A stretch of 64,000 bases of DNA from Candidatus Obscuribacterales bacterium (GCA_949127735.1 CASBPX010000109.1:19627-83626), one strand, 5' to 3'. Numbered from the stretch's first letter, positions 8,730-57,968 are shown. Notes: a model not told the origin generated them from the letters alone. Made by a program: numbers and translations.

Positions 8730-8889
8730 TCCACTATTGTATAACACTAATAGACCGGTCGAATGGTTTTGCCTATATGCCTGTTAAATTCGTCGATGTC
8801 TTAGCCAGTCAAAGAGAGATTGAACCGCTGCGCCCAAAGCGATAACATTGCTGTTTAGTTATCAGTTTAGATTATGAGCATTGCCGAGC

Positions 8890-16414: not shown

Positions 16415-16704
16415 CCCTCTGTCTAATGCCTATGCCTTTTACTGCGTAGAAAATTTGACTGAGTAACATATATAAAGTTCCCCAATGCGAATTCATCGTA
16501 AGTCAAATTTGGTCACATGACTGAAGAAGAGAAGCACACCGCTCAGGTTTCTATAGAAGAGCTTGAAAGCTAACAGGATGCTAATATTGGCCGCGGAACT
16601 TTGCCCTGGCTCGGCCGTCGATGGGGCTGTGTGGTTCTACAGATGTAGAAACCAAAGGTATCGCCAATCGCGAAAAAGAAGAATCTATATTAAGGAGATT
16701 ACTT

Positions 16705-33917: not shown

Positions 33918-34421
33918 ATGGAAGATTTGATTTTGGCCCGCTTGAAAGGAATACGAAATTTTCATGCGGTCAATTCCTGGCTCTACCGTGGTGGTCAACC
34001 CACAGAGGCGCAGTTTACCGAAATTGTAGAGGCGGGCATTAAGACCGTGGTTTGCTTACGTTGGGGTCAGAAGGTTCGTGACGCGGAGCAAAAGGCGGTC
34101 GAGGCCACTGGCATGACATATATTGGCTTGCCGCATTATTATTGGCGATTGCCTACCACTGAAGAAATCGACGAATTTCTCAATCTTCTAGATACCGAAA
34201 GCGCTCGGCCAATTTTTGTTCACTGCTATCACGGTTCAGATCGCACTGGTTTGCTGATAGCCATGTATCGACTATCGAGGCAAAGCTGGACATTTAAGGA
34301 AGCCTACAAAGAGATGCGAAAGTATGGTTTTCACCGTTTCCGCCTTCAGCACTTTAAATGGGTTTTGTATGCCTACGCCAGAAAAGAAATGCGGCGCAAA
34401 CAATTACAAAATCAGCCTTAG
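33918..34421 (+). CDS. Cys-based protein tyrosine / dual-specificity phosphatase
   Basis: P-loop VHCYHGSDRTG (HCX5R-S/T), 167 aa. Divergent from the lipid kinase. Confidence 0.8.
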   Translation: MEDLILARLKGIRNFHAVNSWLYRGGQPTEAQFTEIVEAGIKTVVCLRWGQKVRDAEQKAVEATGMTYIGLPHYYWRLPTTEEIDEFLNLLDTESARPIFVHCYHGSDRTGLLIAMYRLSRQSWTFKEAYKEMRKYGFHRFRLQHFKWVLYAYARKEMRRKQLQNQP

Positions 34422-35311: not shown

Positions 35312-35462
35312 GGTCTCAAACGGTAAAATCCAACAGCAACAGTTTCATGCGCAGCCAGGACGTTACTGGCTGCGTATTTTATACCAAGATTAAATTTCCC
35401 ATTTTGGGAATATGGTAGGTTTTGCATTTCCCGAAATGGGAAGAATTAGAGCAGGAGGATTT

Positions 35463-35753
35463 ATGCAGATAATCCACTGGGCACGCGCCAATCACTTTAT
35501 ACGTATACAAATCGACAAAAAAGCTGAAGAGGCCCTTCAACGTTGGCGCACAGCTGTACTTGCCGCTCAATGGAAAGACTTCGATGACTTGCTCGGTACA
35601 TTCGATTCTGCTCAATGCTTAAACGGGAAAATAATTTTCCTCCTTAAGGGATACCCAGTCAGACTGACCGCCGTCGCCGATTTTGGAAATGACAAACTGT
35701 ATATTCGCGAGGTCGTAGGTCGCTCACCAACAAGTTACTCAGATTATCAATAG
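35463..35753 (+). CDS. higB: Type II toxin HigB-family mRNA interferase
   Basis: AGGAGG RBS. About 96 aa with HigB_toxin-like layout (..A...W......A.W..F.DL...F.SA......I.F.L.G...RL.A...F....LYIR.V). Toxin-first order, followed by an HTH antitoxin. Confidence 0.7.
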   Translation: MQIIHWARANHFIRIQIDKKAEEALQRWRTAVLAAQWKDFDDLLGTFDSAQCLNGKIIFLLKGYPVRLTAVADFGNDKLYIREVVGRSPTSYSDYQ

Positions 35754-35764
35754 GAATAGCGAGA

Positions 35765-36193
35765 ATGGAAATGGTCATGGCTGACGAAAAGATGAACGAT
35801 AAAATTTACGACAAGCTTGTGAAGCGATTTCCATTGCGGCCCATTCGTGATGATGAACAAAACATGCAGGCAGCAGAAGTTTGCGACAGTCTCACTGATC
35901 GCCTCAATACTCTGAGCCAGAGTGAATCAGATTATCTGGAAGTCTTGAGCGATCTGATCGTCAAATATGAATTACGCTTTGATGAAGAGTTAACTGAGAT
36001 GACTCCGCGACAATTGATTCAATATTTTATTGATCAGGATGGACTGGCGCAAAAAGATCTGGTGCCTGAATTTGGTTCGGCCAGCCGAGTGTCAGAATTC
36101 CTCAAAGGAGATAGACGACTGAGCATGGAGCAAGCAAAACGCCTGTCTGACAGGTTTCGTGTGAATATTTCGGCATTGATTGATAGTTACTGA
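35765..36193 (+). CDS. higA: HigA-family antitoxin with C-terminal XRE HTH
   Basis: C-terminal HTH GLAQKDLVPEFGSASRVSEFLKGDRRLSMEQAKRLSDRF. Starts 12 nt after higB. Confidence 0.7.
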   Translation: MEMVMADEKMNDKIYDKLVKRFPLRPIRDDEQNMQAAEVCDSLTDRLNTLSQSESDYLEVLSDLIVKYELRFDEELTEMTPRQLIQYFIDQDGLAQKDLVPEFGSASRVSEFLKGDRRLSMEQAKRLSDRFRVNISALIDSY

Positions 36194-36412
36194 TACTCGG
36201 ATTACGTGTTTGAGAGTTACAAAAATCAAACTGCCCGGTAGATTTGTCTTATTAGTGTTTCTGGCACTAATATTGATTCCCGCGGCCACTGCTCAAAATG
36301 TTCAATATCTTTTGCACGGTGATGGCGGACGCCTTGACTGGAATGACCATACTCAGCTGTTAGTGCTAGATCGCACTACTCGTTCGATACCCTGGATTGC
36401 CTTGTTTCTGCA

Positions 36413-38533
36413 TTAATAAGGCGACCTGACATCCATGTCAGACCGGCGGTCTTTCAGGGTTTGCAAAAACGCCGGCGGAAAGACTTCGTCATTGACAGTT
36501 AAGATTTTCAGGTTTTTAAAATTCACCAGCGTAGGTAGAGATTTTGGTGTTAAGCCTCGACAGCGTTGAATATCTAATTCATTTAGTGCCTTTAGATTCG
36601 TCAGTTTTTTCAACTGATTATCTGTCATTTCATTCTCTCTGATGTTGAGAAACATCAGCTCTTTAAGTTTAGATATCAGCTCATAGTCACTTTCACCGAT
36701 ATCGCATATCGGAACACTCAGGCTCCTTAACTTTTGTTTCGCCACCAGCGCCTTCAGCAGGTTGGTCAGCTGTGGTTTAGAATCAAGTTCCAGACCCTTT
36801 ATTCTTCTCCACATTTGGAGCGGTGCCAGAGCATCACCAGTTATGGCAGTCTCAGCAAGATTCAATTGAACAAAATCTGGAACTTTGTCAATCCATTTTA
36901 AATCGGAATTCTGTATCTCTTTTTCTTTCCTGAAATCGAGTTGCTCTAAACCTCGGATTTTGCAAATGTAATCGCCGACATGAGGGTGGTTCTTTGGCAG
37001 ATCTCTGATGCACAGAATCTTTATTTCGTTTGGTCGAAAAAATTTGAGTAATTCAGGATAGTTTGCAATGGAGAGTCCTGTGTCAAGGCGAATGAACGCG
37101 CCATTGGGAATGATCATTTTGCCCAGGGCAAGGCCTCGAAACTCACGTTGACCGCTTCTTTGAAATGAAATTGTGCCGAGTGAAAAATTTTCTGGAAAAT
37201 CAAATTGGAGAAAATTTTGTCCTCTTACCGTGATGGCATGACTGTACGGTTTTTTATTTTTCGCCAAAAATTGTTTAACCCGATCGCTCTCAGTTTTGGA
37301 AATTTTGTGTATTTCGGGTGATAGACTTTTGTCGAGAAGGCCAGCACCGACTTTACCAATCTCCCGCAGACCAGCTTTATCATCTATGGCATCTGCCGAA
37401 GTGTCACGCGGCAAACCATTGCCTGTGAAGGCGGTTTTCAGCGGAGGGCTATTTTTTGCGGCTATTTCGCCTTGATGTTTTTGGTCAAAATAGAAGGCAA
37501 CGTAGGCTAGGGCTGCAATTAAAATTACAGCGATGGGAATGCTAACAATCACTAGTTGCTTTTTTTTATCAATCTCGTCCTTTAGAGTTTCGTCAATTGC
37601 GGTAGTGGGTTCAGCGATTTTAAGGTTGGTAGATTTGCGGACGCTATTTTCTTTGCCTGTTTTTAAGCTCTTCAATTGCTCTGCCACATCATAAAGAGAT
37701 GATGGACGATCTTCTGGGTCTTTGCTCATTAAGTTTGCCACTATGGCTTCGAGAGCGGGCGGAAATGAAGTATTTATCGCTGTCTCACTCATAGACGGAG
37801 GAATGACCGACTGGTGCAAAGCAACTGTTTCGATAGCGCTTTTGCCGAGTAAAGGCGGTTTGCCGGTGAGCGCTTGAAACATGGTGACGCCCACAGAATA
37901 CATGTCGGTTCGGTAGTCGACTTTTTGACCGAGCGATTGCTCGGGGCTCATGTAAAGTGGGCTGCCGAAGACTTCACCCGGTTTGGTTAAACCCTGATGA
38001 ACATTGGTATCGTACGACAATAATTTGGCAATGCCGAAATCAACAAGCTTGACCTGGCCTGTGCCAAACAAAATCATGATGTTGCCCGGCTTGATATCGC
38101 GATGAATAATGCCGCGGTCATGAGCGTAACCAAGGCCATTACAAATTTGCTCAAAAATGGGCAAAGCATCGTCCACTGACAGTCGACCGTTTTCATCAAG
38201 TCGATCGGCCAGTGATTCGCCCTGAAGATAATCCATGGTATAGAACGGTAATCCGCCTGCCGTCTGGCTCATATCGTAAATTTTGATGATATTGAGGTGA
38301 TCGACTCTGGCAATGGCCTGAGCTTCAGTGCGAAATCTTTGCCATACTTCCGCTGATACCTGGTCTTGCTGCAACACTTTCATGGCTAGAATTTTTGCCA
38401 GAATCAGATGTTCGACTTTGAAGACCCTACCCATGCCGCCCTGGCCGATAAGACCCAAAATTTTGTAAGTGCCGGCGACAATAGCTCCAATCTCAAATGT
38501 TTCATTATTTTGGCCAGGCATCTGGGAATTCAT
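36413..38533 (-). CDS. Receptor-type Ser/Thr kinase: N-terminal Hanks kinase, one TM helix, C-terminal leucine-rich repeats (paralogue 1)
   Basis: GQGGMGRVFKV, AMKVL, HRDIKPGN, DFGIAK, SPEQ. TM helix IVSIPIAVILIAALAYVAFYF. Juxtamembrane AKNKKPY...FDFPENFSLGTISF. LRRs (LxxLxxLxL..C/N). Confidence 0.9.
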   Translation of the reverse strand: MNSQMPGQNNETFEIGAIVAGTYKILGLIGQGGMGRVFKVEHLILAKILAMKVLQQDQVSAEVWQRFRTEAQAIARVDHLNIIKIYDMSQTAGGLPFYTMDYLQGESLADRLDENGRLSVDDALPIFEQICNGLGYAHDRGIIHRDIKPGNIMILFGTGQVKLVDFGIAKLLSYDTNVHQGLTKPGEVFGSPLYMSPEQSLGQKVDYRTDMYSVGVTMFQALTGKPPLLGKSAIETVALHQSVIPPSMSETAINTSFPPALEAIVANLMSKDPEDRPSSLYDVAEQLKSLKTGKENSVRKSTNLKIAEPTTAIDETLKDEIDKKKQLVIVSIPIAVILIAALAYVAFYFDQKHQGEIAAKNSPPLKTAFTGNGLPRDTSADAIDDKAGLREIGKVGAGLLDKSLSPEIHKISKTESDRVKQFLAKNKKPYSHAITVRGQNFLQFDFPENFSLGTISFQRSGQREFRGLALGKMIIPNGAFIRLDTGLSIANYPELLKFFRPNEIKILCIRDLPKNHPHVGDYICKIRGLEQLDFRKEKEIQNSDLKWIDKVPDFVQLNLAETAITGDALAPLQMWRRIKGLELDSKPQLTNLLKALVAKQKLRSLSVPICDIGESDYELISKLKELMFLNIRENEMTDNQLKKLTNLKALNELDIQRCRGLTPKSLPTLVNFKNLKILTVNDEVFPPAFLQTLKDRRSDMDVRSPY

Positions 38534-38612
38534 TTTTTATGTACTGAGCTTCAGTGTTCATGCGAAAATAACCTCAACAGTATAAGCCAGTATTTTTAAT
38601 TGGAGTCGTTTT

Positions 38613-40580
38613 TTGCTGGATGCGGCTAACCCACAGTTAAAAGTTGGTGGTCTCATAGATGGCACGTATACCGTGCTTGAATTTGTGGGCCAGGGTGCCA
38701 TGGGCACCGTTTACAAGGTCGAACATAAGGCTCTCAATCGAGTGCTGGCACTCAAAATTTTGCGCGTTGAGAATCTCACCTCAAGTGTCTGGAAGCGATT
38801 TCAGCTTGAGGGCAAAGCTATTGCCAGAATTGAGCACCCTAATGTAATCAAGATTTATGACCTCAATAAGACCGAAGATGGTCAAGCTTATTACACAATG
38901 GAGTTTCTCTCAGGACTTTCTATGGGAGATTATCTGGCGGCCAATGGCCGTTTTGCTCTAGTCGACGCCCTACCAATATTTCGGCAAGTATGCAGCGGCC
39001 TTCAAAGTGCCCATGATTCTGGCATTATTCACCGTGATATCAAACCCGGCAATATCATGCTTGTTAAAGATCGGCCTTCCTTGCCGATTTCGCAATGCAC
39101 GGCAAAAATTGTTGATTTTGGCATTGTCAAAATTGCCGACAGCACTCATTTGAGCACTCTTGCTTTAACCAGACCTGGTGAGATTTTTGGCACGCCATTT
39201 TACATGAGCCCTGAGCAGTGTGCTGGTAGTCACCTTGATCAGCGCAGTGATGTTTATTCGCTGGGAGTGACATTCTTTCAGGCTCTGACCGGTAAGCCGC
39301 CTTTGTCTGGTCGTAACGCTGTAGAAACTACACTGCTTCACCACACCACGGTGCCGCTTTCGCTTAACGAGACTGTGGGTGAGCAGTTATATCCAGCCGG
39401 GCTGGAAGATATTATCGCTAAAATGCTGGAGAAGGCTCCGGAAGATCGCTACCCATCAATGGCTGAAGTGGAAGATGCATTGCTTGCTGTGAGCGACATG
39501 CCTGCAAGAAAATCTGCTCGTCGAATGGTGACAGCGGCTGCCGTGAAGAGCGAGACCTCTGGCAATACACAGTCGCAAACTCAAACACGCTCTTTCAAAA
39601 TTTTCAGCAAAATGTTTGTGCTACTGCTCTCTTTTTTAATTGTTGGCATTGCATTAGTAAGCATTCTGGCTGGAACTTTGTTTTCGACGAAACCTGCGCG
39701 CACTACAAAAATTATAGACACCGTTAATGGTGGCGAAAAATATCTTCCGGGCAAAGAATTATCAAGCACTGATTTAGCTCTGGCGCGGCAGTATATCGCT
39801 ACCAAGCCAAAACCGTATATGCAGTCTCAAACAGCGACGGCACGTATTTTTAATTTTCCCGAAACATTTTCACTTGGCGATATCAGTACCCAGAACGGAT
39901 TTACCAACACGTTCATTCGCGAAGCTCGCGGCCAAATGCATTTACCGCGTTATGGTTTAACAAAATTGGATGCAAATCCTGTTGTCTTACTAGAACCAAA
40001 GCTGGTGGAATATTTTGCGCCATCAAGTTTAGATTGGTTTTCGGTTGAGGGCCTAAATCGGTCTGCTACACAGCTCACCAGAAGTCTTTCTCAAATAAAA
40101 TCACTGCAGTATCTTGAGCTTAGAAATTGCGATTTACTTGAAAGTGATTTACCCTACATCGAAAAGCTTGAACATCTAAGATTGTTGGATGTGCGATTTT
40201 CGGGCCTGGATGGAAGGAAACTGGCCAAACTCAGCAACTTGAAGCAGCTCAAAATTTTGTGCATTGATGGTAGCCCTAATGTCGCCCCCGTGCTTAAAGA
40301 ACTTGTTTCGGCGAACAAAATTGAAGTGCTATCGCTGAGTGGTTGCATATTAGATCAAGCCGATTTTTCCACAATTGCGCGTATGAAAAAACTGACCAAT
40401 TTGTATTTGCGCAATACCTCACTAAACGATAAAAGTCTGGCCGAGTTAACTTGTCTTGATCTAAGCACCTTAAACATCATTGGCTGCGATAAGCTCAGCG
40501 TGAAATCAACTGCCTTGTTGAAGAAATTCAAGCACATGAAAGATTTATCCCTGCCTACTGTTCAACCTTGGAATTATTAG
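38613..40580 (+). CDS. Receptor-type Ser/Thr kinase with C-terminal leucine-rich repeats (paralogue 2)
   Basis: GQGAMGTVYKV, ALKIL, HRDIKPGN, DFGIVK, SPEQ. TM helix MFVLLLSFLIVGIALVSILAGTLF. ATKPKPY...FNFPETFSLGDIS. LRRs. TTG start, divergent from paralogue 1 with a 79-bp spacer. Confidence 0.88.
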   Translation: MLDAANPQLKVGGLIDGTYTVLEFVGQGAMGTVYKVEHKALNRVLALKILRVENLTSSVWKRFQLEGKAIARIEHPNVIKIYDLNKTEDGQAYYTMEFLSGLSMGDYLAANGRFALVDALPIFRQVCSGLQSAHDSGIIHRDIKPGNIMLVKDRPSLPISQCTAKIVDFGIVKIADSTHLSTLALTRPGEIFGTPFYMSPEQCAGSHLDQRSDVYSLGVTFFQALTGKPPLSGRNAVETTLLHHTTVPLSLNETVGEQLYPAGLEDIIAKMLEKAPEDRYPSMAEVEDALLAVSDMPARKSARRMVTAAAVKSETSGNTQSQTQTRSFKIFSKMFVLLLSFLIVGIALVSILAGTLFSTKPARTTKIIDTVNGGEKYLPGKELSSTDLALARQYIATKPKPYMQSQTATARIFNFPETFSLGDISTQNGFTNTFIREARGQMHLPRYGLTKLDANPVVLLEPKLVEYFAPSSLDWFSVEGLNRSATQLTRSLSQIKSLQYLELRNCDLLESDLPYIEKLEHLRLLDVRFSGLDGRKLAKLSNLKQLKILCIDGSPNVAPVLKELVSANKIEVLSLSGCILDQADFSTIARMKKLTNLYLRNTSLNDKSLAELTCLDLSTLNIIGCDKLSVKSTALLKKFKHMKDLSLPTVQPWNY

Positions 40581-40714
40581 CTTGGAATGATTAAGGCTGC
40601 TGTCAAGAGCCCGCGAATGCAAATACTTAGTTAGCATCTCAGTGCCCGCCGAGCCATTCGCGTTAGCATATAACCTGCTGATTTTAAGAACAGCTAGTTG
40701 CAAGGAGATTGATC

Positions 40715-41638
40715 ATGCGCCATCCCAACGTTCCCGAGTCTTTGGAAGGTTGGTGGATACTCCACCGTATGTTTGCAGTAGACCGACTTTTTTGGGACGA
40801 GCTGGAGCAGGAAGAGCGCGAAGAAATCGTTCGCGAGGCTACCGTTGCGCTTTCAACCCTGCAGAAAGGTGAGAACACTGACATTGGCTTTGCTCAGATG
40901 CTTGGGCACAGAGCTGACTTGATGCTCACGCACTACAGCAAAGATTATGAAGGCCTTGCTCACGCACAAACTGTTGTAGATAAACTGCGCCTCTCTAATT
41001 TTCTCACTCCTGTTTCATCGTATGTTTCAGTTCTTGAATTAGGTCTCTATGAAGCCACAGGCAAAATACATGCCACTCTGGCTGAGCAAGGCCTCAAGGC
41101 GAACTCGCCTGAGTGGATTGCTGCCTTTGACGAGAAAGTTGCAGAGCAAGAGAAAATTCCTCATTTTGGTGGTCGCCTCTGGGCGCGCATTCCACAACGT
41201 CGTTATGTTTGCTTTTACCCAATGGATAAAAAGCGCGGCGAACAAGTTAACTGGTACACGCTTCCTTATGAAGAGCGCGGCAAGTTGATGATTGAACACG
41301 GCAAAATCGGTAGAACTTATGCTGGTCTTGTAACGCAAGTGATCTCTGGTTCTATCGGTTTCGACAAAAACGAGTGGGGCGTAGATCTTTATGCTGACGA
41401 TCCGATGGTCTTCAAAAAATTGATTTACGAAATGCGCTTTGATGAAGCTAGCTCCAAATATGGTGACTTCGGCGATTTCTATTCGGGCGTACAGTTCTCA
41501 CTCGATCAGCTGGCAACATATTTAGACGGTACTGCCGTGCCGGCACTCAATGTGCTGGAACCAGCCGGTGGCGGCCGTCCTGGCGCCAGACCAGAAGGCA
41601 GACCAGAAGGTAGACCAGAAGCAGCTACGAGACCTTAG
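40715..41638 (+). CDS. hemQ: Chlorite-dismutase-family coproheme decarboxylase (HemQ/ChdC)
   Basis: AAGGAG RBS. GWWILHRMF, YVCFYPMDKKR, NWY.LPYEERGKLM.EHG.IGR.Y, QVISGSIGFD..EWGVDLYADDP..FKKLIYEMRFDE.S. C-terminal RPEGRPEGRPE repeat. Confidence 0.85.
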   Translation: MRHPNVPESLEGWWILHRMFAVDRLFWDELEQEEREEIVREATVALSTLQKGENTDIGFAQMLGHRADLMLTHYSKDYEGLAHAQTVVDKLRLSNFLTPVSSYVSVLELGLYEATGKIHATLAEQGLKANSPEWIAAFDEKVAEQEKIPHFGGRLWARIPQRRYVCFYPMDKKRGEQVNWYTLPYEERGKLMIEHGKIGRTYAGLVTQVISGSIGFDKNEWGVDLYADDPMVFKKLIYEMRFDEASSKYGDFGDFYSGVQFSLDQLATYLDGTAVPALNVLEPAGGGRPGARPEGRPEGRPEAATRP

Positions 41639-41654
41639 TTAGGCCGCACTTGGT

Positions 41655-43721
41655 TCAAAACTCTTCTTCGTCTTCAGTAATAAACGTCTTGGGCATTGCT
41701 TTTTGCAATCTTGCTATTTGCTCAGGTGTAAAATTTTCAAGAGGAATAACCAGTCGCTTCATATTCTTGAACCGCGGAAACACTGGCAGCACTTTGGTAT
41801 TCAAGCCACGTACTTCTCGAAGACATAGTTTGGTCAGATCAAGTTTTGTTAGTTCAACAATGTCTTGATTCGACATTTTGTTTTTACGCAGGTTCAGATG
41901 CTTGAGATGCGATAGTTCTGCTACCATCCTGTAGTCGTCTGCAGTTGGGTCGCAGCAAGCAATATTGAGAACTACGATATTTTGACTTTCTTTTAACGCT
42001 TTTAAAACTGGCGAAATGTTTTGCATGTGTTCTATTTCTAAAAATGCCAGTTTCCTCAAAAGCTTGCTTGCAGACAGGCCGTTAGCGGTGACATTCGTTC
42101 TGCTTATAGACAGCCTCTCGAGAGACGGCATTTTCTCAAGCCATTTTAAGTCACCATCGGTAACCTGAGAGTAATGCAAGTCTAGGGTTTGGAGGCCTGT
42201 TAGTCTTATAAGGTTTTGAGCCATTTGCTCGCGATTTTCGCTGACATTATTTAGGCCGAGCCCTTGCAATTCATTGGCACGAAAGAAGCGCAGCAGGTCA
42301 TAGTAGACTTTAGTTACGGGGCTGGCGTCTAGTCGCACCCTTGCTGTAACCGGCACCTCAACTACTCCTTGGGCTGGTACGACTTTTGCGCTCCTGCGGT
42401 CACCAAGGTTATAGGTAATCTTTCCTAGAGTAAAGTCACTAGGAAATTCGAAGTGCTTGTATTCTTTACCGTTCGCCTTATATCTGGTGCTTTACATTTT
42501 TTTGTTTTTTGCTAAGTATTCTTCGACTTTCTCCGCTTCAGGCAGTGGATCCTTTTTGTCGTATGCTAATGTTTCGTCCTTCTTATCTACTTTAGCTGCA
42601 GCCGCATCTAAATCATCTTGGTCTTTGAGAAGAAGCACACCTTCTGCATAAAGCGCTTTTATCTTGCTACCTTTTTCAACGTGGTTTGTTTGCTGATCCC
42701 AATACCAGTATGCTCCAGCTAAAGTTAGTAAACTTACCAATATAAGTGGAATATACAAAAATATGTGCTGCTTTTTTTCATCACCGTCAGTAGTATCAAA
42801 ATCTTCTTCCACCGGTTTTTTAATGGCGGTAGCATCTTTGGTCAGCCGCTTTCCCTGCGCCAGCGTTTTCAACTGTTCAGCAACATCGTAAAATGATAGA
42901 TAGCGCTCTTCTGGGTCTTTACTTAGAAGCCGCCGCACAATCAATTCCAGGTCGGGTGGAAAAGCAATGTCTGGAGCCACGTCTTTTAGTGCAGGAGGTG
43001 GCGCAGATTGATGTAGCGCGACCGTTTCAATGGCGCTTTTACCCAGCAGGGGAGGCCGTCCCGTCAAAATTTGAAACATGGTAACGCCCAGCGAATACAT
43101 GTCGGTACGGTAGTCGACTTTCTGGCCAACCGCCTGTTCCGGACTCATGTATAGAGGGCTACCAAATACTTCTCCAGGACGTGTTAAACCTTGCCCGACG
43201 TTTGTGTCGTACGACAATAATTTGGCAATACCAAAGTCGACAATTTTTACCTGTGGTCGCTTAGGGTCGCCCCCATGCAAAATCATTATATTGCCAGGCT
43301 TGATGTCGCGGTGAATAATTCCGCGATCGTGAGCGTAGCCAAGGCCGTTGCAGACCTGTTCGAAAATTAGTAGAGCTTCGGGTACAGGAATCAGTTCGAC
43401 GTCGTCAAGGCGCTCAGCCAGCGATTCGCCAGACAAAAATTCCATGGTGTAGAAAGGTAATCCGCTGGCGGTCTGACTCATGTCAAATATTTTGATAATG
43501 TTCGGATGGTCGACTCTGGCGATAGCTTGCGCCTCAGTGCGAAACCTTTGCGATACTTCCGGCGATACTTGCTCCTGGCGCAAAATTTTCATAGCTTGAA
43601 TTTTTGCCAGCACAATGTGCTCGACTTTGAACACCTGCCCCATTCCGCCCTGGCCAATGAACTCTAAGATTTTGTATGTTTCGGCAATTACCGAGCCAAT
43701 TTCAAACGATTCTTCGTTCAT
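41655..43721 (-). pseudogene. Receptor-type Ser/Thr kinase-LRR (paralogue 3) interrupted by one in-frame TAA
   Basis: ORFs 42492-43721 (kinase plus TM helix) and 41655-42356 (LRRs) are in the same frame. Translation through the TAA at 42492-42494 gives AKNKKM*STRYKANGKEYKHFEFPSDFTLGKITYNLG, collinear with AKNKKPY...FDFPENFSLGTISF of paralogue 1. Confidence 0.8.
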
Positions 43722-43741
43722 TCATTTGCACCGGCTGCAGC

Positions 43742-44215
43742 TCAGGAAAATTCGCCGGGATGAATTTGTGATTCTATTTGTTTATTTAAAAAAGTAGGAA
43801 ACCGATAATAGAGTTCGCCGTGGTCATTAACGTCAATTTGACAGACACCGGTTTGAGCAAGGCGTTCAAATGCGCTCTTAGTATCGGCAATACCGATGCC
43901 GCATTCGAGGGCCGCAGCAGAAATAGTTAGTGTGCCACCCTCGATTTTTGCGCGACTGAGAATCAGCTGTTCTTGTTTAATTTGACGTATCGCTCGCTTT
44001 TCTTTGAGCTTTACTTGCACTAGTTTGACACCGACAAAAACCAGGCCGGCTAGAAACGTAATCAGACCGACGTGATGCGCAACACCATACTTTGGATTGC
44101 CGGCGATGATTTCACCAGTGTAAGTGACGATTAAGCCGCCGCAAACCAATATGAGAAAAATTCCCAGGCACCAGAGAGTTGATTGAAAAAATTGTGAGAC
44201 GCCAGATTTATTCAA
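43742..44215 (-). CDS. Hypothetical two-TM membrane protein with small C-terminal soluble domain
   Basis: 157 aa. Stop lies 20 nt upstream of the paralogue-3 kinase start, so probably co-transcribed. Confidence 0.5.
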   Translation of the reverse strand: MNKSGVSQFFQSTLWCLGIFLILVCGGLIVTYTGEIIAGNPKYGVAHHVGLITFLAGLVFVGVKLVQVKLKEKRAIRQIKQEQLILSRAKIEGGTLTISAAALECGIGIADTKSAFERLAQTGVCQIDVNDHGELYYRFPTFLNKQIESQIHPGEFS

Positions 44216-44662
44216 ATGCTCGGCCTCGCTGTGAGTGCTCGCAAGGCATTATACGGCAATTTCGTACTCTACAACAGCTTCGTTTGTCTTCATAGTCAAG
44301 AACATCAGCAGTGCAAATTTAATGGGCTTTATTTTAGAAACTTGATCTTTTTTAGGCGCCAGACAGGGAGAACGGTATGTCACGCTTATGTCATTTTTAG
44401 CAAATAGACTAAAGTTGCGTTCCATTGAGAATGAGGTTTTTATGGCTGAACACAATTGTATCCCTGTTCCATCTCGCATGTTTCAAAGTCAAGCAGAGCT
44501 ATCAAGCGGCGGCGCCTTAAGTAAGGACGACGATAAATTTTGGATTCCCGCTAAATTGCGCGCCCTGACTAATGCTCGTGACCGTGCGTCGAATCTGGCC
44601 GCGGTATTCAGCCCAGATTTGGAAAGTGGAGATAGCCTGTTAATCAGCAATCAATAAACAAA

Positions 44663-45904
44663 TCAGTCAGCAGGTGGTGGATCAACAATTGCGCCAAGGA
44701 ATAAAATCGCATTTGTTTTGCTGTCGCGAATAGCTACAACAAAAGGACGATCGCAAACCATTTCGAATGGTGGCTCAGGCTCGGCTGGTGCGCTGGTGAC
44801 GCTCATTTCTACAGCAGTGGCTGCGGCTGCTTCTGTGCCTTTTTCGTTGACTTCCAGATAAGTTTTATGCAAAACGCGCGAAATTACTGATGGCTCTTTG
44901 GTCATGTTTTTGAAGTCGGCGCAGGAGTCTTCAAAAGCGCAGGGCATGCCTGCTTCTTTGAGCACTTTGCTTAACTCGGTTTTGTATTCAACTTTAAATC
45001 GCGGTAGACCGAGATGTCCCTCTTTTTTGCCAAACTGTTCGCTCCAATTCTTCAGATTTTCTTCAGTAAAGCTGGCTACTAAAGCATTTATATCTGACTT
45101 CTGATCAGGCAAAAAGACGCACATCTGCAGGCGCTTATCTTTGTAAGGCAACATCACAGCCTGGAAATTTTTACCTTTTAAATAATGCATCTTGTCTGAG
45201 CGATTCATTATTTGAATTTGTTTTTTAGCGCCACCTGCAACGGTAAATTCCGCAGCTTGCGTTTGATCTTTGACAAATTCATCGAGCCACATGCCCTTAA
45301 AATACACGGCATTGACTAAATATAAAATGGCTGCTTGCGGAACTTGATCGATAATTGTGGGAATTTTCCCTTTAGTGTTGTCTTTAACCCAATTATTGAT
45401 TTTATCGAGCGTGGTGGCATCTGCAAAATCAAGAGTTTCAAGTTTGGCACCAAAATATTTTTGATTGGTGTTCGTAAACGACTTTTCAAATGCGAAGTCT
45501 TTATTGGCAAACAAGGCATTCGCCACAGTCAGCTCGCTCACCGGATTAACATGCATCAAACTCTTGTAGAGACTGGCATTTTGTTCATTGACAGCATCGT
45601 CAGTAATGCCGGCGTAACCTAATACTTCTTGCATTTGTGTTTTGGTTTTACCCACAGCGCCGTTGTAGACCATAGAGAGCGCTGTACTGACGCTGTATGG
45701 AGAAATGACCACATTTGTTTCAGGCGATGCGGCAGCAAGTTTGAAGAAGTTAGAGGCAAATTTTTCAGACACTTTTAAATTCACGGTGTCATCTTCACTG
45801 CTTGATTGATCTATTTGAGATTGTCCTGGCGAAGCGCATGCGACAAGACAAATTGATACCAGTGAAAGGGCCGTGGCGGTGCAGGCATACAAGAATGGAC
45901 GCAC
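44663..45904 (-). CDS. Serpin (serine protease inhibitor), predicted lipoprotein
   Basis: Lipobox LVAC after a signal peptide. Serpin core (ISPYSVSTALSMVYNGA, AILYLVNAVYFKGMW). Inhibitory-type hinge EKGTEAAAATAVEM. C-terminal FVCDRPF-like motif (MVCDRPFVVAIRD). Confidence 0.9.
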   Translation of the reverse strand: MRPFLYACTATALSLVSICLVACASPGQSQIDQSSSEDDTVNLKVSEKFASNFFKLAAASPETNVVISPYSVSTALSMVYNGAVGKTKTQMQEVLGYAGITDDAVNEQNASLYKSLMHVNPVSELTVANALFANKDFAFEKSFTNTNQKYFGAKLETLDFADATTLDKINNWVKDNTKGKIPTIIDQVPQAAILYLVNAVYFKGMWLDEFVKDQTQAAEFTVAGGAKKQIQIMNRSDKMHYLKGKNFQAVMLPYKDKRLQMCVFLPDQKSDINALVASFTEENLKNWSEQFGKKEGHLGLPRFKVEYKTELSKVLKEAGMPCAFEDSCADFKNMTKEPSVISRVLHKTYLEVNEKGTEAAAATAVEMSVTSAPAEPEPPFEMVCDRPFVVAIRDSKTNAILFLGAIVDPPPAD

Positions 45905-55859: not shown

Positions 55860-56201
55860 ATGGCTCGTCATAACAAGTTGCTGGAATCGCCACCGTTTGC
55901 CGTAGAGCAGGCACTTGTTCAACTGGGAGATAACCTCAGGCTGGCTAGAATTAGACGCAGTATGACTATCGCCGATGCTGCCGAACGCATTGGCACAGGG
56001 CCGCGAGCGGTGATGGATGCCGAAAAGGGCAAACCGGCAACCGGAATAGTGGTCTATGCCGCTTTGCTCTGGCTCTACAATCAACTTGACCAGTTGGGAG
56101 ATGTGGCTGACCCATCAAAAGACAAGGAAGGTTTGATACTAGATTCGGTGCACAAGCGTCAGCGTGTACGCAAAATTCGTGGTATTGATAATGACTTCTA
56201 A
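55860..56201 (+). CDS. hipB: HipB-like XRE-family HTH antitoxin
   Basis: HTH LGDNLRLARIRRSMTIADAAERIGTGPRAVMDAEKG. Its 3' end overlaps the hipA start by 11 nt. Confidence 0.75.
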   Translation: MARHNKLLESPPFAVEQALVQLGDNLRLARIRRSMTIADAAERIGTGPRAVMDAEKGKPATGIVVYAALLWLYNQLDQLGDVADPSKDKEGLILDSVHKRQRVRKIRGIDNDF

Positions 56202-57456
56202 AGAATCAGAATCTGAATGTTTTGTCTACATCACATTGCCGCACGCAACTACTGGTGTCACTGCCGGTCGTTTTGAAATTACAAAGGACAAGCTTGGTAA
56301 TAGCACCGGTAAATTTATTTACGGGAGAACATATTTATCACGCAGCGATGCAGTAGACATAGATCCAGTTGAATTAAAGTTAGGCGAAGATCTCTTCCGG
56401 ACTGCACGCCTGGAGGGTGTGTTTAGCTCACTGCGAGATGCGGGTCCTGATTTTTGGGGACGCCACGTTATTGAACGGCATTCGGGAAAAATCGCGCTGA
56501 GTGAAATCGATTATCTTCTGGAGTCGCCCGATGATCGAGCCGGAGCACTCGGATTTGGATTGAATCAAAAACCTCCGGCACCGATGCGAAAATATAATAA
56601 AACCATTGATCTGGCGCGCCTTCAGCAGATCGCAGACAAATTACTCAGAGAAGAAAATGTGAATACAGAGCTTGAATCTATTCAAGTTCGAGAATTGCTC
56701 CTCCTTCAAACGTCGATGGGGGGAGCCAGGCCCAAGGCGGTTGTCGAGGATGAAACCGGTCTTTGGGTGGCCAAATTTTCGCGTCCAGATGATCGCTGGA
56801 ATAATCCGTTGGTCGAGCATGCAATGCTTGTACTTGCTCGACAATGTGGAATTAACGCAGCGATCAGTCGTGTAGAAAATATTGGCGGTAAAGAAGTACT
56901 TCTGGTGCAAAGATTCGATCGCAATAAAACCAGTCTGGGTTATGTCCGAGCAAGAATGATTAGCGGCTTAACGCTGCTTCGAGCAGACGAATCGCCTTTG
57001 CGACGCGAACGTTGGTCATATGTATTGATGGCAGAAGAGTTACGTAGAGTGGTGGCAGAGCCCAAGCGAGATGCAGCAGAACTGTTTCGTCGTATTTGCT
57101 TTAATTCACTTATTTCCAACATTGATGACCATCCACGTAACCACGCACTGATCTCCTTTGACAAGGGTTGGAAACTTTCGCCGGCTTACGACCTGACGCC
57201 CTCATTGGCGGTATCGCAAGAGCGGCGTGACCTGGCTTTAGAGTGCGGAAATCTTGGACGTTATGCCAACGCTAAAAATCTACTGAGCCAGTGCTCACGG
57301 TTTTTACTTGCGGAAGCAGAAGCAAATCAAATCATTTCAGATATGGCTGCCCACGTTGAAGCAAACTGGCATAGTGTCGCGCGATCACAAGGCGTAAGCG
57401 AGCGCGACGCAAGAACGATTAAGGAAGCTTTCAATTATCCAGGCTTCTCACTGTAG
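56191..57456 (+). CDS. hipA: HipA-family Ser/Thr kinase toxin
   Basis: N-terminal coupling domain. SMGGARPKAVVED. Catalytic NIDDHPRNHALI. SPAYDLTP. About 420 aa. Confidence 0.88.
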   Translation: MTSKESESECFVYITLPHATTGVTAGRFEITKDKLGNSTGKFIYGRTYLSRSDAVDIDPVELKLGEDLFRTARLEGVFSSLRDAGPDFWGRHVIERHSGKIALSEIDYLLESPDDRAGALGFGLNQKPPAPMRKYNKTIDLARLQQIADKLLREENVNTELESIQVRELLLLQTSMGGARPKAVVEDETGLWVAKFSRPDDRWNNPLVEHAMLVLARQCGINAAISRVENIGGKEVLLVQRFDRNKTSLGYVRARMISGLTLLRADESPLRRERWSYVLMAEELRRVVAEPKRDAAELFRRICFNSLISNIDDHPRNHALISFDKGWKLSPAYDLTPSLAVSQERRDLALECGNLGRYANAKNLLSQCSRFLLAEAEANQIISDMAAHVEANWHSVARSQGVSERDARTIKEAFNYPGFSL

Positions 57457-57578
57457 AGCTTGCTGACGTATGCACCTCGCCGTCCTCGCACGTTCACAGA
57501 ATCTTCACAAAAGTGCTGTATGTCGTCGGTGTGAGCCGTTTAGATAATCCAGCTTATTTTGACCAGGATACCCGACCA

Positions 57579-57968
57579 ATGAACCCAGTAGCCAACAGAA
57601 GAGCTCTAATTGTAGACGACCAAGGCGTGACACGCTTTGCCACTAGAGTCATCACTGAAGAGCTGGGTTTCGAAGTAGATGAGGCTCAGAACAGTGCCGA
57701 TGCCGTCGAAAAAGCCGTCTTGCAGTGCTATCAGTTAATCTTGCTGGATTTTGATATGCCTGGAGTGAACGGTGCAGAATGCGCTAAGCAAATTCGACAG
57801 TTGGATAATTTTTCGAGCCAAAACACAGTCATATTTTGTTTGAGCGCTAGCAGCGACCCTCAAATTAAGGAGGCTTGCTTGGAGGCAGGCATGGATGGTT
57901 ATATAGAAAGACCTTGCCTTGAGTCGAACCTGGCCGCCGCCATAGATGGATGGAGCGCCGCCCAATAG
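57579..57968 (+). CDS. Single-domain response regulator (CheY-like receiver)
   Basis: ALIVDDQGVTR, LILLDFDMPGVNG (phospho-Asp), LSAS..., GMDGYIERP. No output domain. Confidence 0.82.
   Translation: MNPVANRRALIVDDQGVTRFATRVITEELGFEVDEAQNSADAVEKAVLQCYQLILLDFDMPGVNGAECAKQIRQLDNFSSQNTVIFCLSASSDPQIKEACLEAGMDGYIERPCLESNLAAAIDGWSAAQ

What the first reader, a model, noticed from the sequence alone, without database searches (positions are those of the whole stretch)
36413..43721. Cluster of three paralogous receptor-type Ser/Thr kinases with extracytoplasmic LRR domains
Three genes (36413-38533 minus, 38613-40580 plus, 41655-43721 minus) share one architecture. Each has an N-terminal Hanks kinase with every catalytic motif intact (A.K, HRDIKPGN, DFG, SPEQ), a single TM helix and then a conserved juxtamembrane module. 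That module reads AKNKKPY or ATKPKPY followed by F.FP..F(S/T)LG.I(S/T). About 200 aa of leucine-rich repeats follow.

Copies 1 and 3 are nearly identical over long kinase stretches, for example RFRTEAQAIARVDH.NIIKI.DMSQTA.GLPFYTM. Copies 1 and 2 are head-to-head with only 79 bp between them.

A cytoplasmic kinase wired through one TM helix to an LRR ectodomain follows the domain logic of plant LRR receptor kinases. I know of no characterised bacterial pathway or ligand for this arrangement, and the juxtamembrane module matches no domain I recognise. Local paralogue expansion with one decayed copy suggests a fast-evolving sensing family.
Basis: partly seen in the sequence, partly recalled or inferred. 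Interest (0 to 1): 0.7.

Follow-up and report, generated by a model that had tools for sequence, protein, structure and literature searches.

The report
Bacterial receptor kinases with LRR sensors
Three neighbouring genes in a non-photosynthetic cyanobacterium (Obscuribacterales-like) encode membrane kinases whose outward-facing part is a leucine-rich-repeat domain; this is a real, conserved but unstudied variant of the ordinary bacterial receptor kinase, and it resembles plant immune receptors by analogy only.

Summary
Three paralogues share one layout: an N-terminal PknB-like Hanks kinase with all catalytic motifs, one transmembrane (TM) helix, a variable linker, a conserved ~85-aa beta module, and eight 24-25-aa LRRs. 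An AlphaFold2 model of the copy-1 ectodomain scores pLDDT 93.5. Foldseek matches it to FBXL2, SKP2, SDS22 and RNase inhibitor.

- The "juxtamembrane module" lies about 66 residues (copy 1) beyond the TM helix. It is the N-terminal cap of the LRR domain. It has no Pfam, NCBIfam or PDB match, but it also precedes LRRs in non-kinase proteins (hhalign 98.3%).
- The trio is not a recent expansion. A related MAG holds all three orthologues in synteny. Kinase identity is 91-93% and ectodomain identity 59-78%. dN/dS is 0.06-0.09 for the kinases and 0.16-0.25 for the ectodomains. Paralogue ectodomains are only 26-32% identical.
- The "decayed" copy carries a single TAT-to-TAA change in an otherwise intact frame.
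- Topology, kinase clade and LRR subtype all differ from plant LRR receptor kinases.

At least 24 clusters at 50% identity share the architecture. All come from metagenomes or MAGs, the few labelled ones being Obscuribacterales or cyanobacterial, and none is characterised. I read these as periplasmic LRR sensors driving a Hanks kinase: a new variant of a known kind, of moderate interest.

The parts
36413..38533 (-). c1: complete LRR receptor-type Hanks kinase, 706 aa
   Evidence: ORF; Pkinase E 1.5e-51; closest solved relative is M. tuberculosis PknB, E 7e-47; orthologue in L001 at 8810-10879, 68% identical
37664..38491 (-). c1 kinase domain (residues 15-290), cytoplasmic
   Evidence: Pfam match over residues 23-278; catalytic residues K52, E70, HRD144-146, N151, DFG165-167, SPE196-198, D210 and R276 invariant in 26 family members; 92.8% identical to its orthologue, dN/dS 0.058
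37487..37555 (-). c1 transmembrane helix (residues 327-349)
   Evidence: Kyte-Doolittle maximum 2.85 over 19 aa; a Lys-rich flank (DKKKQ) lies on the N-terminal side
37031..37288 (-). c1 N-terminal cap module of the ectodomain (residues 416-501): one helix plus six beta strands, including FDFPENFSLG...AxGxxxxP...YPELLKFFRP
   Evidence: AF2 pLDDT 96.2 when modelled alone; no significant PDB match, best E 0.019 and TM 0.26; no Pfam or NCBIfam hit; homologous to caps of non-kinase LRR proteins, hhalign 98.3%
36446..37030 (-). c1 LRR solenoid: eight repeats of 24-25 aa (residues 502-696)
   Evidence: AF2 pLDDT 93.5, pTM 0.89; Foldseek probability 1.00 to FBXL2, SKP2, SDS22, FBXL17 and RNase inhibitor; repeat register
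38534..38612 (.). 79-bp divergent intergenic region between c1 and c2
   Evidence: Coordinates; L001 has the same arrangement with 77 bp. The promoter scan gives no more matches than chance, so co-regulation is an inference only
38613..40580 (+). c2: complete LRR receptor-type Hanks kinase, 655 aa, TTG start
   Evidence: ORF; Pkinase E 7.8e-47; TM 334-357; orthologue L001 6756-8732 is 83% identical and has the same TTG start
39768..40577 (+). c2 ectodomain (N-cap plus LRRs)
   Evidence: Aligns with the c1 and c3 ectodomains; 77% identical to its orthologue, dN/dS 0.17
41655..43721 (-). c3: same architecture, 688 codons, interrupted by one in-frame stop codon
   Evidence: Translation; orthologue L001 3548-5614 is an intact 688 aa, 80% identical
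42492..42494 (-). TAA nonsense codon in c3 (codon 410), just before the N-cap module
   Evidence: Window reads ...AAAAAAATGTAAAGC...; L001 reads ...AAAAAAATGTATAGC..., a single T-to-A change. No further frame damage downstream
41658..42491 (-). c3 ectodomain coding region downstream of the stop codon (N-cap plus LRRs)
   Evidence: Pfam LRR_8, LRR_4, LRR_6 and LRR_Zer-1 above the gathering cut-off; 78% identical to its orthologue, dN/dS 0.16
43742..44215 (-). 157-aa protein with two hydrophobic segments (read by eye as TM), 20 bp upstream of c3 on the same strand. It may be co-transcribed. No link to the kinases is established.
   Evidence: 96% identical in L001 at the same position; no Pfam, NCBIfam or PADLOC hit; absent from the other family loci

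Best explanation
c1, c2 and c3 belong to an uncharacterised family of bacterial receptor-type Hanks (PknB-like) Ser/Thr kinases, so far seen only in metagenomes and MAGs, the labelled ones being Obscuribacterales or cyanobacterial.

What is shown. Each protein is anchored by one TM helix. The catalytically complete kinase must face the cytoplasm, where ATP is. The C-terminal ~290 aa therefore face the periplasm, because these are diderm bacteria. That region is a single folded unit: a beta-rich N-terminal cap of ~85 aa with no match in current libraries, fused to an eight-repeat LRR solenoid.

What is inferred. The concave LRR face is the most variable surface and differs almost completely between paralogues. 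I infer that it binds a periplasmic ligand, probably a protein or peptide, specific to each paralogue. By analogy with PknB/PrkC-type kinases, binding would change the oligomeric state or position of the receptor. That would allow trans-autophosphorylation of the activation loop, where Thr183 is invariant in the family alignment. The active kinase would then phosphorylate cytoplasmic substrates, none of which is identified here.

The three copies are old, individually conserved receptors with distinct specificities. In this genome c3 carries one nonsense codon ahead of its sensor. It is a very recent pseudogene, a sensor-less kinase, or a base-call or strain variant.
For: Architecture:
- ORFs, Pfam hits, TM segments and the alignment of the three copies.
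- The kinase is closest to M. tuberculosis PknB, PknA and PknE and to StkP (E 7e-47 to 1e-35). It matches NCBIfam PknB_PASTA_kin over the kinase part only (282 bits).
- Catalytic residues are invariant in 26 family members.

Ectodomain fold:
- AF2 pLDDT 93.5, pTM 0.89.
- Foldseek probability 1.00 to FBXL2, SKP2, SDS22, FBXL17, RNase inhibitor and internalins.

Extracytoplasmic use of the module:
- The same N-cap plus LRR unit follows signal-peptide-like N-termini, read by eye, in P0073 and P0109.
- It also follows the M56 domain and a further hydrophobic segment in the BlaR1-like proteins P0018 and P0092.

Selection:
- All three orthologue pairs are under purifying selection. dN/dS is 0.06-0.09 in the kinase and 0.16-0.25 in the ectodomain.
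- Synteny of the trio is conserved in L001.

Specificity surface:
- Concave-face positions are 12-15% identical between paralogues, against 22-33% for other non-core LRR positions.
- Between orthologues the figures are 40% against 63% (c1) and 62% against 81% (c3). The pooled Fisher test gives p = 0.012.
- Family-wide entropy is 2.95 bits on the concave face against 2.30 bits elsewhere.

Family and envelope:
- At least 24 clusters at 50% identity have the same full-length layout.
- Melainabacteria carry the gene complement of a Gram-negative (diderm) envelope (PMC4040986).
Against: - There is no experimental datum for any family member.
- No ligand, substrate, FHA-domain protein or PP2C phosphatase is encoded in the 64-kb window. 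The only nearby phosphatase is a DSP-PTPase at 33918-34421.
- Topology rests on hydropathy, the positive-inside pattern and the ATP argument. No dedicated predictor was run.
- In c2 the concave face is not more variable than the rest between orthologues (80% against 77%). The overall signal is modest and comes from three orthologue pairs.
- dN/dS uses a simple Nei-Gojobori count with dS of 0.4-1.2, which is close to saturation.
- Activation by dimerisation is carried over from PknB and was not tested.
Confidence: 0.6

Rival explanations
1. The LRR ectodomain is an anchoring or scaffolding domain, not a ligand-gated sensor. It would hold the kinase at a fixed periplasmic partner, such as an outer-membrane or cell-wall protein or the division machinery. 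Activity would then be governed by location, as has been argued for PASTA domains in PknB/StkP-type kinases.
For: LRRs are general protein-protein interaction modules, and the nearest folds are adaptor proteins: FBXL2, SKP2 and SDS22. Ectodomains are under purifying selection with no gene-wide sign of positive selection. The concave face of c2 is as conserved as the rest of the domain.
Against: The three paralogues differ almost completely on the concave face (12-15% identity). The family is diverse (27 ectodomains, mean column identity 41%). This fits many different partners better than one housekeeping anchor. The same cassette is attached to BlaR1/M56-type signal transducers, whose C-terminal domain is the sensor in the characterised members.
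Confidence: 0.2
2. The paralogues work as hetero-oligomeric receptor and co-receptor pairs. For example, c1 and c2 could be expressed from their shared 79-bp divergent region, like the plant receptor/SERK or animal TLR heterodimers.
For: The head-to-head arrangement with a 77-79 bp spacer is conserved in the related MAG. Clusters of 2-4 family genes recur at other loci: L001 has 4, L002 and L003 have 2 each, L006 has 2, L007 has 3.
Against: Clustering is equally well explained by tandem duplication. No promoter was detected above chance. No modelling or co-variation analysis of complexes was possible here. L003 has its pair in tandem rather than divergent.
Confidence: 0.1
3. The genes are anti-phage defence kinases related to PD-T4-6 or MADS6.
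For: PADLOC PD-T4-6 models hit at E 1e-75 to 1e-82 and mad6 at about 1e-65. A HigB/HigA-like pair lies next to c1.
Against: The hits cover only the kinase domain. An unrelated TPR-linked Hanks kinase in the same window scores even better (E 3e-86), so these models respond to PknB-like kinase domains in general. NCBIfam MADS6 scores 170 bits against a cut-off of 460. The ectodomain, the 157-aa neighbour and the chlorite-dismutase-like neighbour have no PADLOC hit. The region is ordinary chromosome: topoisomerase, Tex, GlnRS, RsgA. A periplasmic sensor is not how the defence kinases I know of operate (own knowledge).
Confidence: 0.03
4. c3 is non-functional in this organism, either as a pseudogene or as a sensor-less kinase, so the locus holds two working receptors and not three.
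For: There is an in-frame TAA at codon 410, where the orthologue has TAT. The downstream piece has no signal peptide or TM segment of its own.
Against: The remaining 278 codons carry no other lesion. The c3 ectodomain shows dN/dS of 0.16 against its orthologue. The change is therefore very recent, or is a base-call or strain variant in the assembly. Read-level data are not available.
Confidence: 0.5

Closest known systems
Bacterial receptor-type Hanks kinases: PknB/PrkC/StkP with PASTA ectodomains, and other single-pass Ser/Thr kinases with periplasmic repeat domains such as the WD40- or TPR-bearing kinases of Planctomycetota (PMC11032199)
   Same: The layout is the same: N-terminal cytoplasmic PknB-like kinase, one TM helix, then a C-terminal extracytoplasmic domain. 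The kinase domain is closest in sequence to PknB, PknA, StkP and PknE.
   Different: The sensor is an LRR solenoid with its own N-terminal cap, in place of PASTA, WD40 or TPR domains. There is no PASTA domain, and NCBIfam PknB_PASTA_kin scores below its cut-off. The ligand and substrates are unknown.
Plant LRR receptor kinases (FLS2, BRI1 and CLV1; RLK/Pelle family)
   Same: The functional logic is the same: an extracytoplasmic LRR domain is coupled through one TM helix to a cytoplasmic Ser/Thr kinase. Variation is concentrated on the concave LRR face, and the genes occur in clusters of paralogues.
   Different: The topology is opposite: the kinase is N-terminal, there is no signal peptide and the LRRs are C-terminal. 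No plant or IRAK kinase appears among the best 60 solved relatives, which begin with PknB. The LRRs are 24-25 aa and resemble FBXL/SDS22/RNase-inhibitor types. There is no LRRNT_2 cap. The ectodomain has 8 repeats, whereas by my recollection receptors such as FLS2 and BRI1 have roughly 20-30. The resemblance is convergent.
Non-kinase bacterial LRR proteins carrying the same N-cap plus LRR cassette: secreted proteins annotated only as 'Leucine-rich repeat (LRR) protein' (P0073, P0109, P0125), and BlaR1/peptidase-M56 membrane proteins with C-terminal LRR arrays (P0018, P0092)
   Same: The cap module is homologous: FP..(S/V)LG, then A(R/Q)G.V.VP, then ...L.L, then P.DL (hhalign 98.3%, E 2e-14 over 72 columns). 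It is followed by LRRs of the same type.
   Different: These proteins have no kinase. The cassette is often repeated several times and the LRR arrays are much longer. The source organisms are unknown.
Roco/LRRK kinases (LRR-Roc-COR-kinase)
   Same: One polypeptide contains both LRRs and a protein kinase.
   Different: No match to any family other than kinase- and LRR-type ones was reported above noise. The proteins here are membrane-spanning, with the LRRs and the kinase on opposite sides of the membrane.
F-box LRR proteins (FBXL2, SKP2 and FBXL17), SDS22 and ribonuclease inhibitor
   Same: These are the nearest solved folds to the ectodomain (Foldseek E 1.6e-7 to 3e-6, TM normalised to query 0.47-0.62).
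   Different: They are eukaryotic cytosolic adaptors with 12-20% sequence identity. The similarity is at the level of LRR subtype only. None has the beta-rich N-cap.

Membership tests
Hanks-type (eukaryote-like) Ser/Thr protein kinases, PknB-like branch | Complete catalytic core: Gly-rich loop, VAIK Lys, alphaC Glu, HRDxKPxN, DFG, (A/S)PE, alphaF Asp and the conserved Arg near the C-terminal end of the domain | tested here: met
   Pkinase E 1e-47 to 1e-51. All of these residues are present in c1-c3 and invariant in 26 family members. The best solved relative is PknB, E 7e-47.
Receptor-type bacterial Hanks kinases | Kinase at the N-terminus, one TM helix, C-terminal folded extracytoplasmic domain | tested here: met
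   Each protein has one hydrophobic segment of 22-24 aa. The C-terminal 291 aa fold as one domain (pLDDT 93.5). Orientation is inferred from the ATP requirement and from basic residues on the N-terminal flank. No dedicated topology predictor was run.
Stk1/PknB PASTA kinase family (NCBIfam NF033483) | PASTA repeats in the ectodomain and a whole-protein score of at least 450 bits | tested here: not met
   Scores are 282, 253 and 274 bits. Only profile positions 2-303 of 563 are matched. There is no Pfam PASTA hit.
LRR superfamily | Tandem LxxLxLxx(N/C)xL units forming a curved beta/alpha solenoid | tested here: met
   Pfam LRR models score above the gathering cut-off in c3 and below it in c1 and c2. 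The AF2 model has eight repeat units (nine beta strands) at 24-25 aa spacing. Foldseek probability to LRR proteins is 1.00, with 218 matches at E <= 1e-3.
Plant LRR receptor kinases (RLK/Pelle) | Type-I topology: signal peptide, N-terminal LRR ectodomain, TM helix, C-terminal kinase | tested here: not met
   The kinase occupies residues ~15-290 and the LRRs residues ~500-700. There is no N-terminal hydrophobic segment.
Plant LRR receptor kinases (RLK/Pelle) | Kinase domain in the RLK/Pelle/IRAK clade | tested here: not met
   The top 20 solved relatives are all bacterial (PknB, PknA, StkP, PknE). The eukaryotic hits that follow are S6K, ULK and MARK at E ~1e-27. No RLK or IRAK appears among the best 60. 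No tree was built.
Plant LRR receptor kinases (RLK/Pelle) | Plant-specific LRR subtype with Cys-pair caps (LRRNT_2) | tested here: not met
   There is no LRRNT_2 hit. The nearest folds are FBXL2, SKP2, SDS22 and RNase inhibitor. The N-cap is a different beta module.
Roco/LRRK | Roc GTPase and COR domains between the LRRs and the kinase | tested here: not met
   No Pfam family other than kinase- and LRR-type ones scored above noise. A TM helix and a low-complexity linker separate the kinase from the LRRs.
PD-T4-6 / MADS6 defence kinases | A specific match beyond the generic kinase domain, and a defence-island context | tested here: not met
   Hits are confined to the kinase domain. A control kinase in the window scores higher. 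NCBIfam MADS6 scores 170 bits against a cut-off of 460. The flanking genes are housekeeping genes.
Any characterised family covering the N-cap module | A significant match of ectodomain residues 1-95 to a curated domain or a solved structure | tested here: not met
   There is no Pfam or NCBIfam hit on this stretch in c1-c3 or in seven other proteins carrying the cap. The best Foldseek PDB match has E 0.019 and TM 0.26.

The most novel reading that the evidence does not exclude
The N-cap plus LRR unit is a portable extracytoplasmic sensor cassette. Bacteria have plugged it into at least two unrelated transmembrane transducers: Hanks kinases in Obscuribacterales-like bacteria, and BlaR1/M56-type proteases elsewhere. 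On this reading it is an independent bacterial invention of LRR-based receptor signalling. Paralogue-specific concave faces would recognise different periplasmic protein or peptide ligands. The cap itself would be a fold not yet represented among solved structures.
Probability: 0.35. Interest if true: 0.6.

Novelty: new variant of a known kind. Interest (0 to 1): 0.4.

Why it matters
Bacterial Hanks kinases with known extracellular inputs are few; PASTA domains binding muropeptides are the main example. A conserved family that uses an LRR solenoid as its periplasmic input would add a new sensor class to bacterial Ser/Thr signalling. It would also be a clean case of convergence with plant LRR receptor kinases and animal TLRs.

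The uncatalogued ~85-aa cap gives a specific handle, in sequence-profile form, for finding this cassette in other signalling proteins. The lineage is uncultured and no ligand, substrate or phenotype is known. For now the value is that of a well-defined hypothesis and a candidate new domain family, not a solved pathway.

Tried and rejected
- The search for homologous proteins with the c1 ectodomain returned one weak generic LRR hit. With the 27-sequence N-cap alignment it returned nothing. Its word index evidently misses this family, because the exhaustive representative search found the relatives. Those two negatives say nothing about rarity.
With the three-paralogue alignment it found no confirmed relative.
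- The metagenome scan with P0004 returned mostly kinase-only matches through the DIKPGNIM pattern. Only L004-L007 and L009 carry the ectodomain.
- The promoter and terminator scan of 36000-44700 gave no more matches than shuffled sequence and is uninformative.
- A conserved partner gene was looked for and not found. The 157-aa membrane protein and the chlorite-dismutase-like gene accompany the kinases only in the closely related MAG L001. Neighbours in L003 are unrelated. No FHA or PP2C gene lies in the window.
- The defence-system reading was rejected after a control kinase scored higher on the same PADLOC models.
- Literature searches found no paper on LRR-bearing Hanks kinases in Melainabacteria. 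One 2005 survey merely lists a Pseudomonas aeruginosa kinase with LRRs (PMC1262709).
- My own regular expression for the N-cap motif was mis-specified. I used only that call's kinase-motif positions, together with the tblastn ectodomain hits.

Full report
**1. What is in the sequence**

- c1: 36413-38533(-), 706 aa.
- c2: 38613-40580(+), 655 aa, TTG start.
- c3: 41655-43721(-).

In the ORF list c3 appears as two pieces, 42492-43721 and 41655-42356. Translating the whole span shows a single in-frame TAA at codon 410 in an otherwise open 688-codon frame. So c3 has a nonsense codon, not a frameshift and not general decay.

All three proteins hit Pfam Pkinase at E 1e-47 to 1e-51. They carry the Gly-rich loop, the catalytic Lys, HRDIKPGN, DFG and SPEQ. 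Each has one strongly hydrophobic segment of 22-24 residues after the kinase: c1 327-349, c2 334-357, c3 320-341. The c1-c2 spacer is 79 bp.

A fourth Hanks kinase in the window (3496-5433) shares only the kinase domain and carries TPRs instead.

**2. Organism and relatives**

A scan of one genome per GTDB species found three loci.
- L001 is a MAG labelled 'Cyanobacteria bacterium'.
- L002 is an unclassified MAG.
- L003 is labelled 'Candidatus Obscuribacteraceae bacterium'.

The window's G+C content is about 47%. Ca. Obscuribacter phosphatis has 49.4% (PMC4040986). The window is therefore most likely from a member of the Obscuribacterales, the non-photosynthetic cyanobacteria. That paper reports a Gram-negative (diderm) envelope gene complement for the Melainabacteria, so 'extracytoplasmic' here means periplasmic.

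L001 is syntenic with the window. It has the serpin, the small membrane protein, c3, the chlorite-dismutase-like gene, c2 and then c1 head-to-head with c2, all in the same order. Orthologue identities are 68% (c1), 83% (c2) and 80% (c3). The L001 copy of c3 is an intact 688 aa. It reads TAT (Tyr) where the window reads TAA, a single T-to-A change.

L001 also holds about 5 kb that the window lacks, between c1 and the HigA-like gene. That segment contains a fourth family member with an N-terminal zinc-ribbon-like motif. L002 and L003 each hold two full-length family genes.

**3. How large is the family**

An exhaustive profile search was run with the three ectodomains against 1.84 billion cluster representatives. 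It returned many generic multi-LRR proteins that match only the repeat part of the profile.

Among the best 150, 25 proteins match the profile over nearly its full length (start at position 3-27, end at 264-286) in a single stretch at their C-terminus; 24 of them are 658-844 aa long and one is a 486-aa fragment. The 24 full-length ones were aligned with c1 and c2. The catalytic residues are invariant in all of them. F446, G453 and A469 of the cap module are invariant, and P447, F450 and G471 are nearly invariant.

Cluster look-ups show these proteins only in metagenomes and MAGs. Their names are generic: 'protein kinase [Candidatus Obscuribacterales bacterium]', 'serine/threonine protein kinase', or even 'Bud32'.

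Further metagenome loci also carry family genes in clusters: two in L006, three in L007, and two kinase genes in L004, only one of which has a confirmed ectodomain because the other is cut by the contig end. The family is real, moderately diverse, recurrently clustered and uncharacterised.

**4. The ectodomain**

An AlphaFold2 model of c1 residues 416-706, built with a 27-sequence family alignment, is confident (pLDDT 93.5, pTM 0.89). It shows one helix, then six beta strands (residues 16-70 of the construct, including FDFPENFSLG), then two short helices (YPELLKFFRP), and then eight beta/alpha repeats of 24-25 aa.

Foldseek against the PDB gives 218 matches at E <= 1e-3. The best are FBXL2, SKP2, SDS22, Toll, internalins, FBXL17 and ribonuclease inhibitor, with probability 1.00 and query-normalised TM up to 0.62. 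This settles the LRR question, which the Pfam scores left open for c1 and c2. It also shows that the repeats are not of the plant-specific subtype.

**5. The 'juxtamembrane module'**

In c1 the module begins about 66 residues after the TM helix. A poorly conserved linker lies between them (43-70% identical between orthologues, including the TM helix). In the model the module is the N-terminal cap of the solenoid.

Modelled alone (95 aa), it is again confident (pLDDT 96.2). It has no significant PDB neighbour: the best match has E 0.019 and TM 0.26. No Pfam or NCBIfam model covers it, in the window proteins or in seven other proteins that carry it.

The module is not specific to kinases. The profile search also recovered two other kinds of protein in which a clearly related module precedes LRR arrays, often several times per protein. 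The shared pattern is FP..(S/V)LG, then A(R/Q)G.V.VP, then ...L.L, then P.DL.
- Proteins with signal-peptide-like N-termini, read by eye: P0073 and P0109.
- BlaR1/peptidase-M56 membrane proteins: P0018 and P0092.

A profile-profile comparison of 27 kinase-linked caps with 12 such caps gives 98.3% probability and E 2e-14 over 72 columns. One caveat applies: the 12 were picked by eye from hits to a profile that included the cap.

It is best described as the cap of an extracytoplasmic LRR cassette that is shared between different signal transducers.

**6. Evolution**

I used Nei-Gojobori counts on orthologue pairs between the window and L001.

| Region | aa identity | dN/dS |
|---|---|---|
| Kinase domains | 91-93% | 0.06-0.09 |
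| Ectodomain c1 | 59% | 0.25 |
| Ectodomain c2 | 77% | 0.17 |
| Ectodomain c3 | 78% | 0.16 |

Selection is purifying throughout and is two- to four-fold weaker on the sensor. dS is 0.4-1.2, so the ratios are rough.

Between paralogues the kinase domains are 49-77% identical, the ectodomains only 26-32%, and synonymous sites are saturated. The duplications therefore long predate the split of the two genomes. This is not a recent local burst. Copy number does vary, as the fourth copy in L001 shows.

I split the LRR positions into concave-face, hydrophobic-core and other positions.
- Between paralogues the concave face is 12-15% identical, against 22-33% for other non-core positions.
- Between orthologues the figures are 40% against 63% for c1, 62% against 81% for c3, and 80% against 77% for c2.
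- The pooled Fisher test gives p = 0.012.
- Across the family, entropy is 2.95 bits on the concave face against 2.30 bits elsewhere.

This is the pattern expected if the concave face determines binding specificity. The evidence is modest.

**7. Mechanism**

Shown:
- a complete PknB-like kinase;
- one TM helix;
- a folded cap-plus-LRR domain on the other side of the membrane;
- conservation of each paralogue.

Inferred:
- the LRR concave face binds a paralogue-specific periplasmic ligand, most likely a protein or peptide;
- binding alters oligomerisation or position;
- the kinase then trans-autophosphorylates its activation loop, where Thr183 is invariant, and phosphorylates cytoplasmic targets.

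No substrate, FHA-domain protein or PP2C phosphatase is encoded in the window. The region is ordinary chromosome, with topoisomerase, Tex, GlnRS, RsgA and a two-component pair.

The small 157-aa membrane protein lies 20 bp upstream of c3. It is 96% identical in L001, more conserved than the kinase domains. It is absent from the other family loci, so I do not assign it a role.

**8. Rivals**

- A scaffolding or localisation role for the LRRs cannot be excluded (0.2).
- Receptor and co-receptor pairing of the clustered paralogues is possible but untested (0.1).
- A defence role is unlikely. The strong PADLOC PD-T4-6 and mad6 hits cover only the kinase domain. An unrelated kinase in the window scores higher on the same models.
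- c3 in this genome may be a fresh pseudogene, a sensor-less kinase or a base-call variant. The data here cannot tell which.

**9. Comparison with what is known, and novelty**

By layout and kinase lineage, these are members of the broad class of bacterial receptor-type Hanks kinases. They fail the test for the PASTA family. They also fail every defining feature of plant LRR receptor kinases that I could test: topology, kinase clade and LRR subtype. The plant comparison is therefore functional analogy, that is, convergence.

Single-pass bacterial Ser/Thr kinases with periplasmic repeat domains (WD40, TPR) are documented in Planctomycetota (PMC11032199). A kinase with LRRs was listed in a 2005 survey (PMC1262709). 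So the general idea is not new.

What is new is a defined, conserved family that couples a Hanks kinase to a capped LRR cassette, together with the uncatalogued cap itself.

My verdict is a new variant of a known kind, with interest 0.4.

Noticed in passing
window 43742-44215 (-): A 157-aa protein with two hydrophobic segments (read by eye as TM) lies 20 bp upstream of c3 on the same strand. It is 96% identical to its counterpart in the related MAG L001 (2961-3527). That is more conserved than the adjacent kinase domains (91-93%). It has no Pfam, NCBIfam or PADLOC match and is absent from the other family loci.
   Followed up: partly
window 35412-35753 and 35765-36193 (+): A HigB-like toxin (Pfam HigB_toxin, E 4.9e-9) is followed by a 142-aa ORF that is probably the antitoxin; I infer this from its position only, and it has no Pfam hit. 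The pair lies directly next to the 3' end of c1. L001 has a homologue of the second ORF at 16112-16576.
   Followed up: no
L001 11049-16103, compared with window 36193-36413: The related MAG carries about 5 kb between c1 and the HigA-like gene that the window lacks. The segment holds a 557-aa protein, a fourth LRR kinase (736 aa) and a 367-aa protein. Copy number of the family therefore differs between close relatives.
   Followed up: partly
L001 12783-14993; proteins P0059, P0064, P0086, P0148: A subfamily of the LRR kinases has an N-terminal cytoplasmic extension with one or two zinc-ribbon-like motifs (CxxCGK...(S/G)S(F/L)(T/A)S(F/Y)(L/F/V)F...CxC) ahead of the kinase domain. No Pfam family was reported for this stretch.
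   Followed up: no
window 3496-5433 (-): A fourth Hanks kinase (645 aa) has C-terminal TPR repeats (TPR_12). It shares only the kinase domain (36-42% identity) with c1-c3.
   Followed up: partly
window 44663-45904 (-): A full-length serpin (Pfam Serpin, E 1e-112) has an N-terminus that looks like a lipoprotein signal (...SLVSICLVAC ASPGQ). It is conserved next to the kinase cluster in L001.
   Followed up: no
window 40709-41638 (+): A chlorite-dismutase-family gene sits between c2 and c3. It ends in a short Gly/Arg/Pro/Glu repeat tail (GGRPGARPEGRPEGRPE). It is 94% identical in L001, where the tail is shorter.
   Followed up: no
window 33918-34421 (+): A small dual-specificity/PTP-type phosphatase (PTP-NADK, E 2.9e-20) is the only protein phosphatase candidate near the kinases. 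It lies between a YegS/DAG-kinase-like gene and a weak EF-hand protein.
   Followed up: no
L003 2230-3027 (+): A 265-aa ORF contains the N-cap motif (HRVFNFPTDTSIGY) and LRRs but no kinase, TM segment or signal peptide. It lies next to the kinase pair and may be a remnant of another family member.
   Followed up: no
window 56164-57968 (+): A HipA_C-domain kinase (430 aa) is followed by a stand-alone receiver-domain protein (151 aa).
   Followed up: no
tool behaviour: The word-indexed protein search missed a family that the exhaustive representative search found easily. The PADLOC PD-T4-6 models hit any PknB-like kinase domain at E ~1e-80, so such hits should not be read as evidence of a defence system.
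   Followed up: yes
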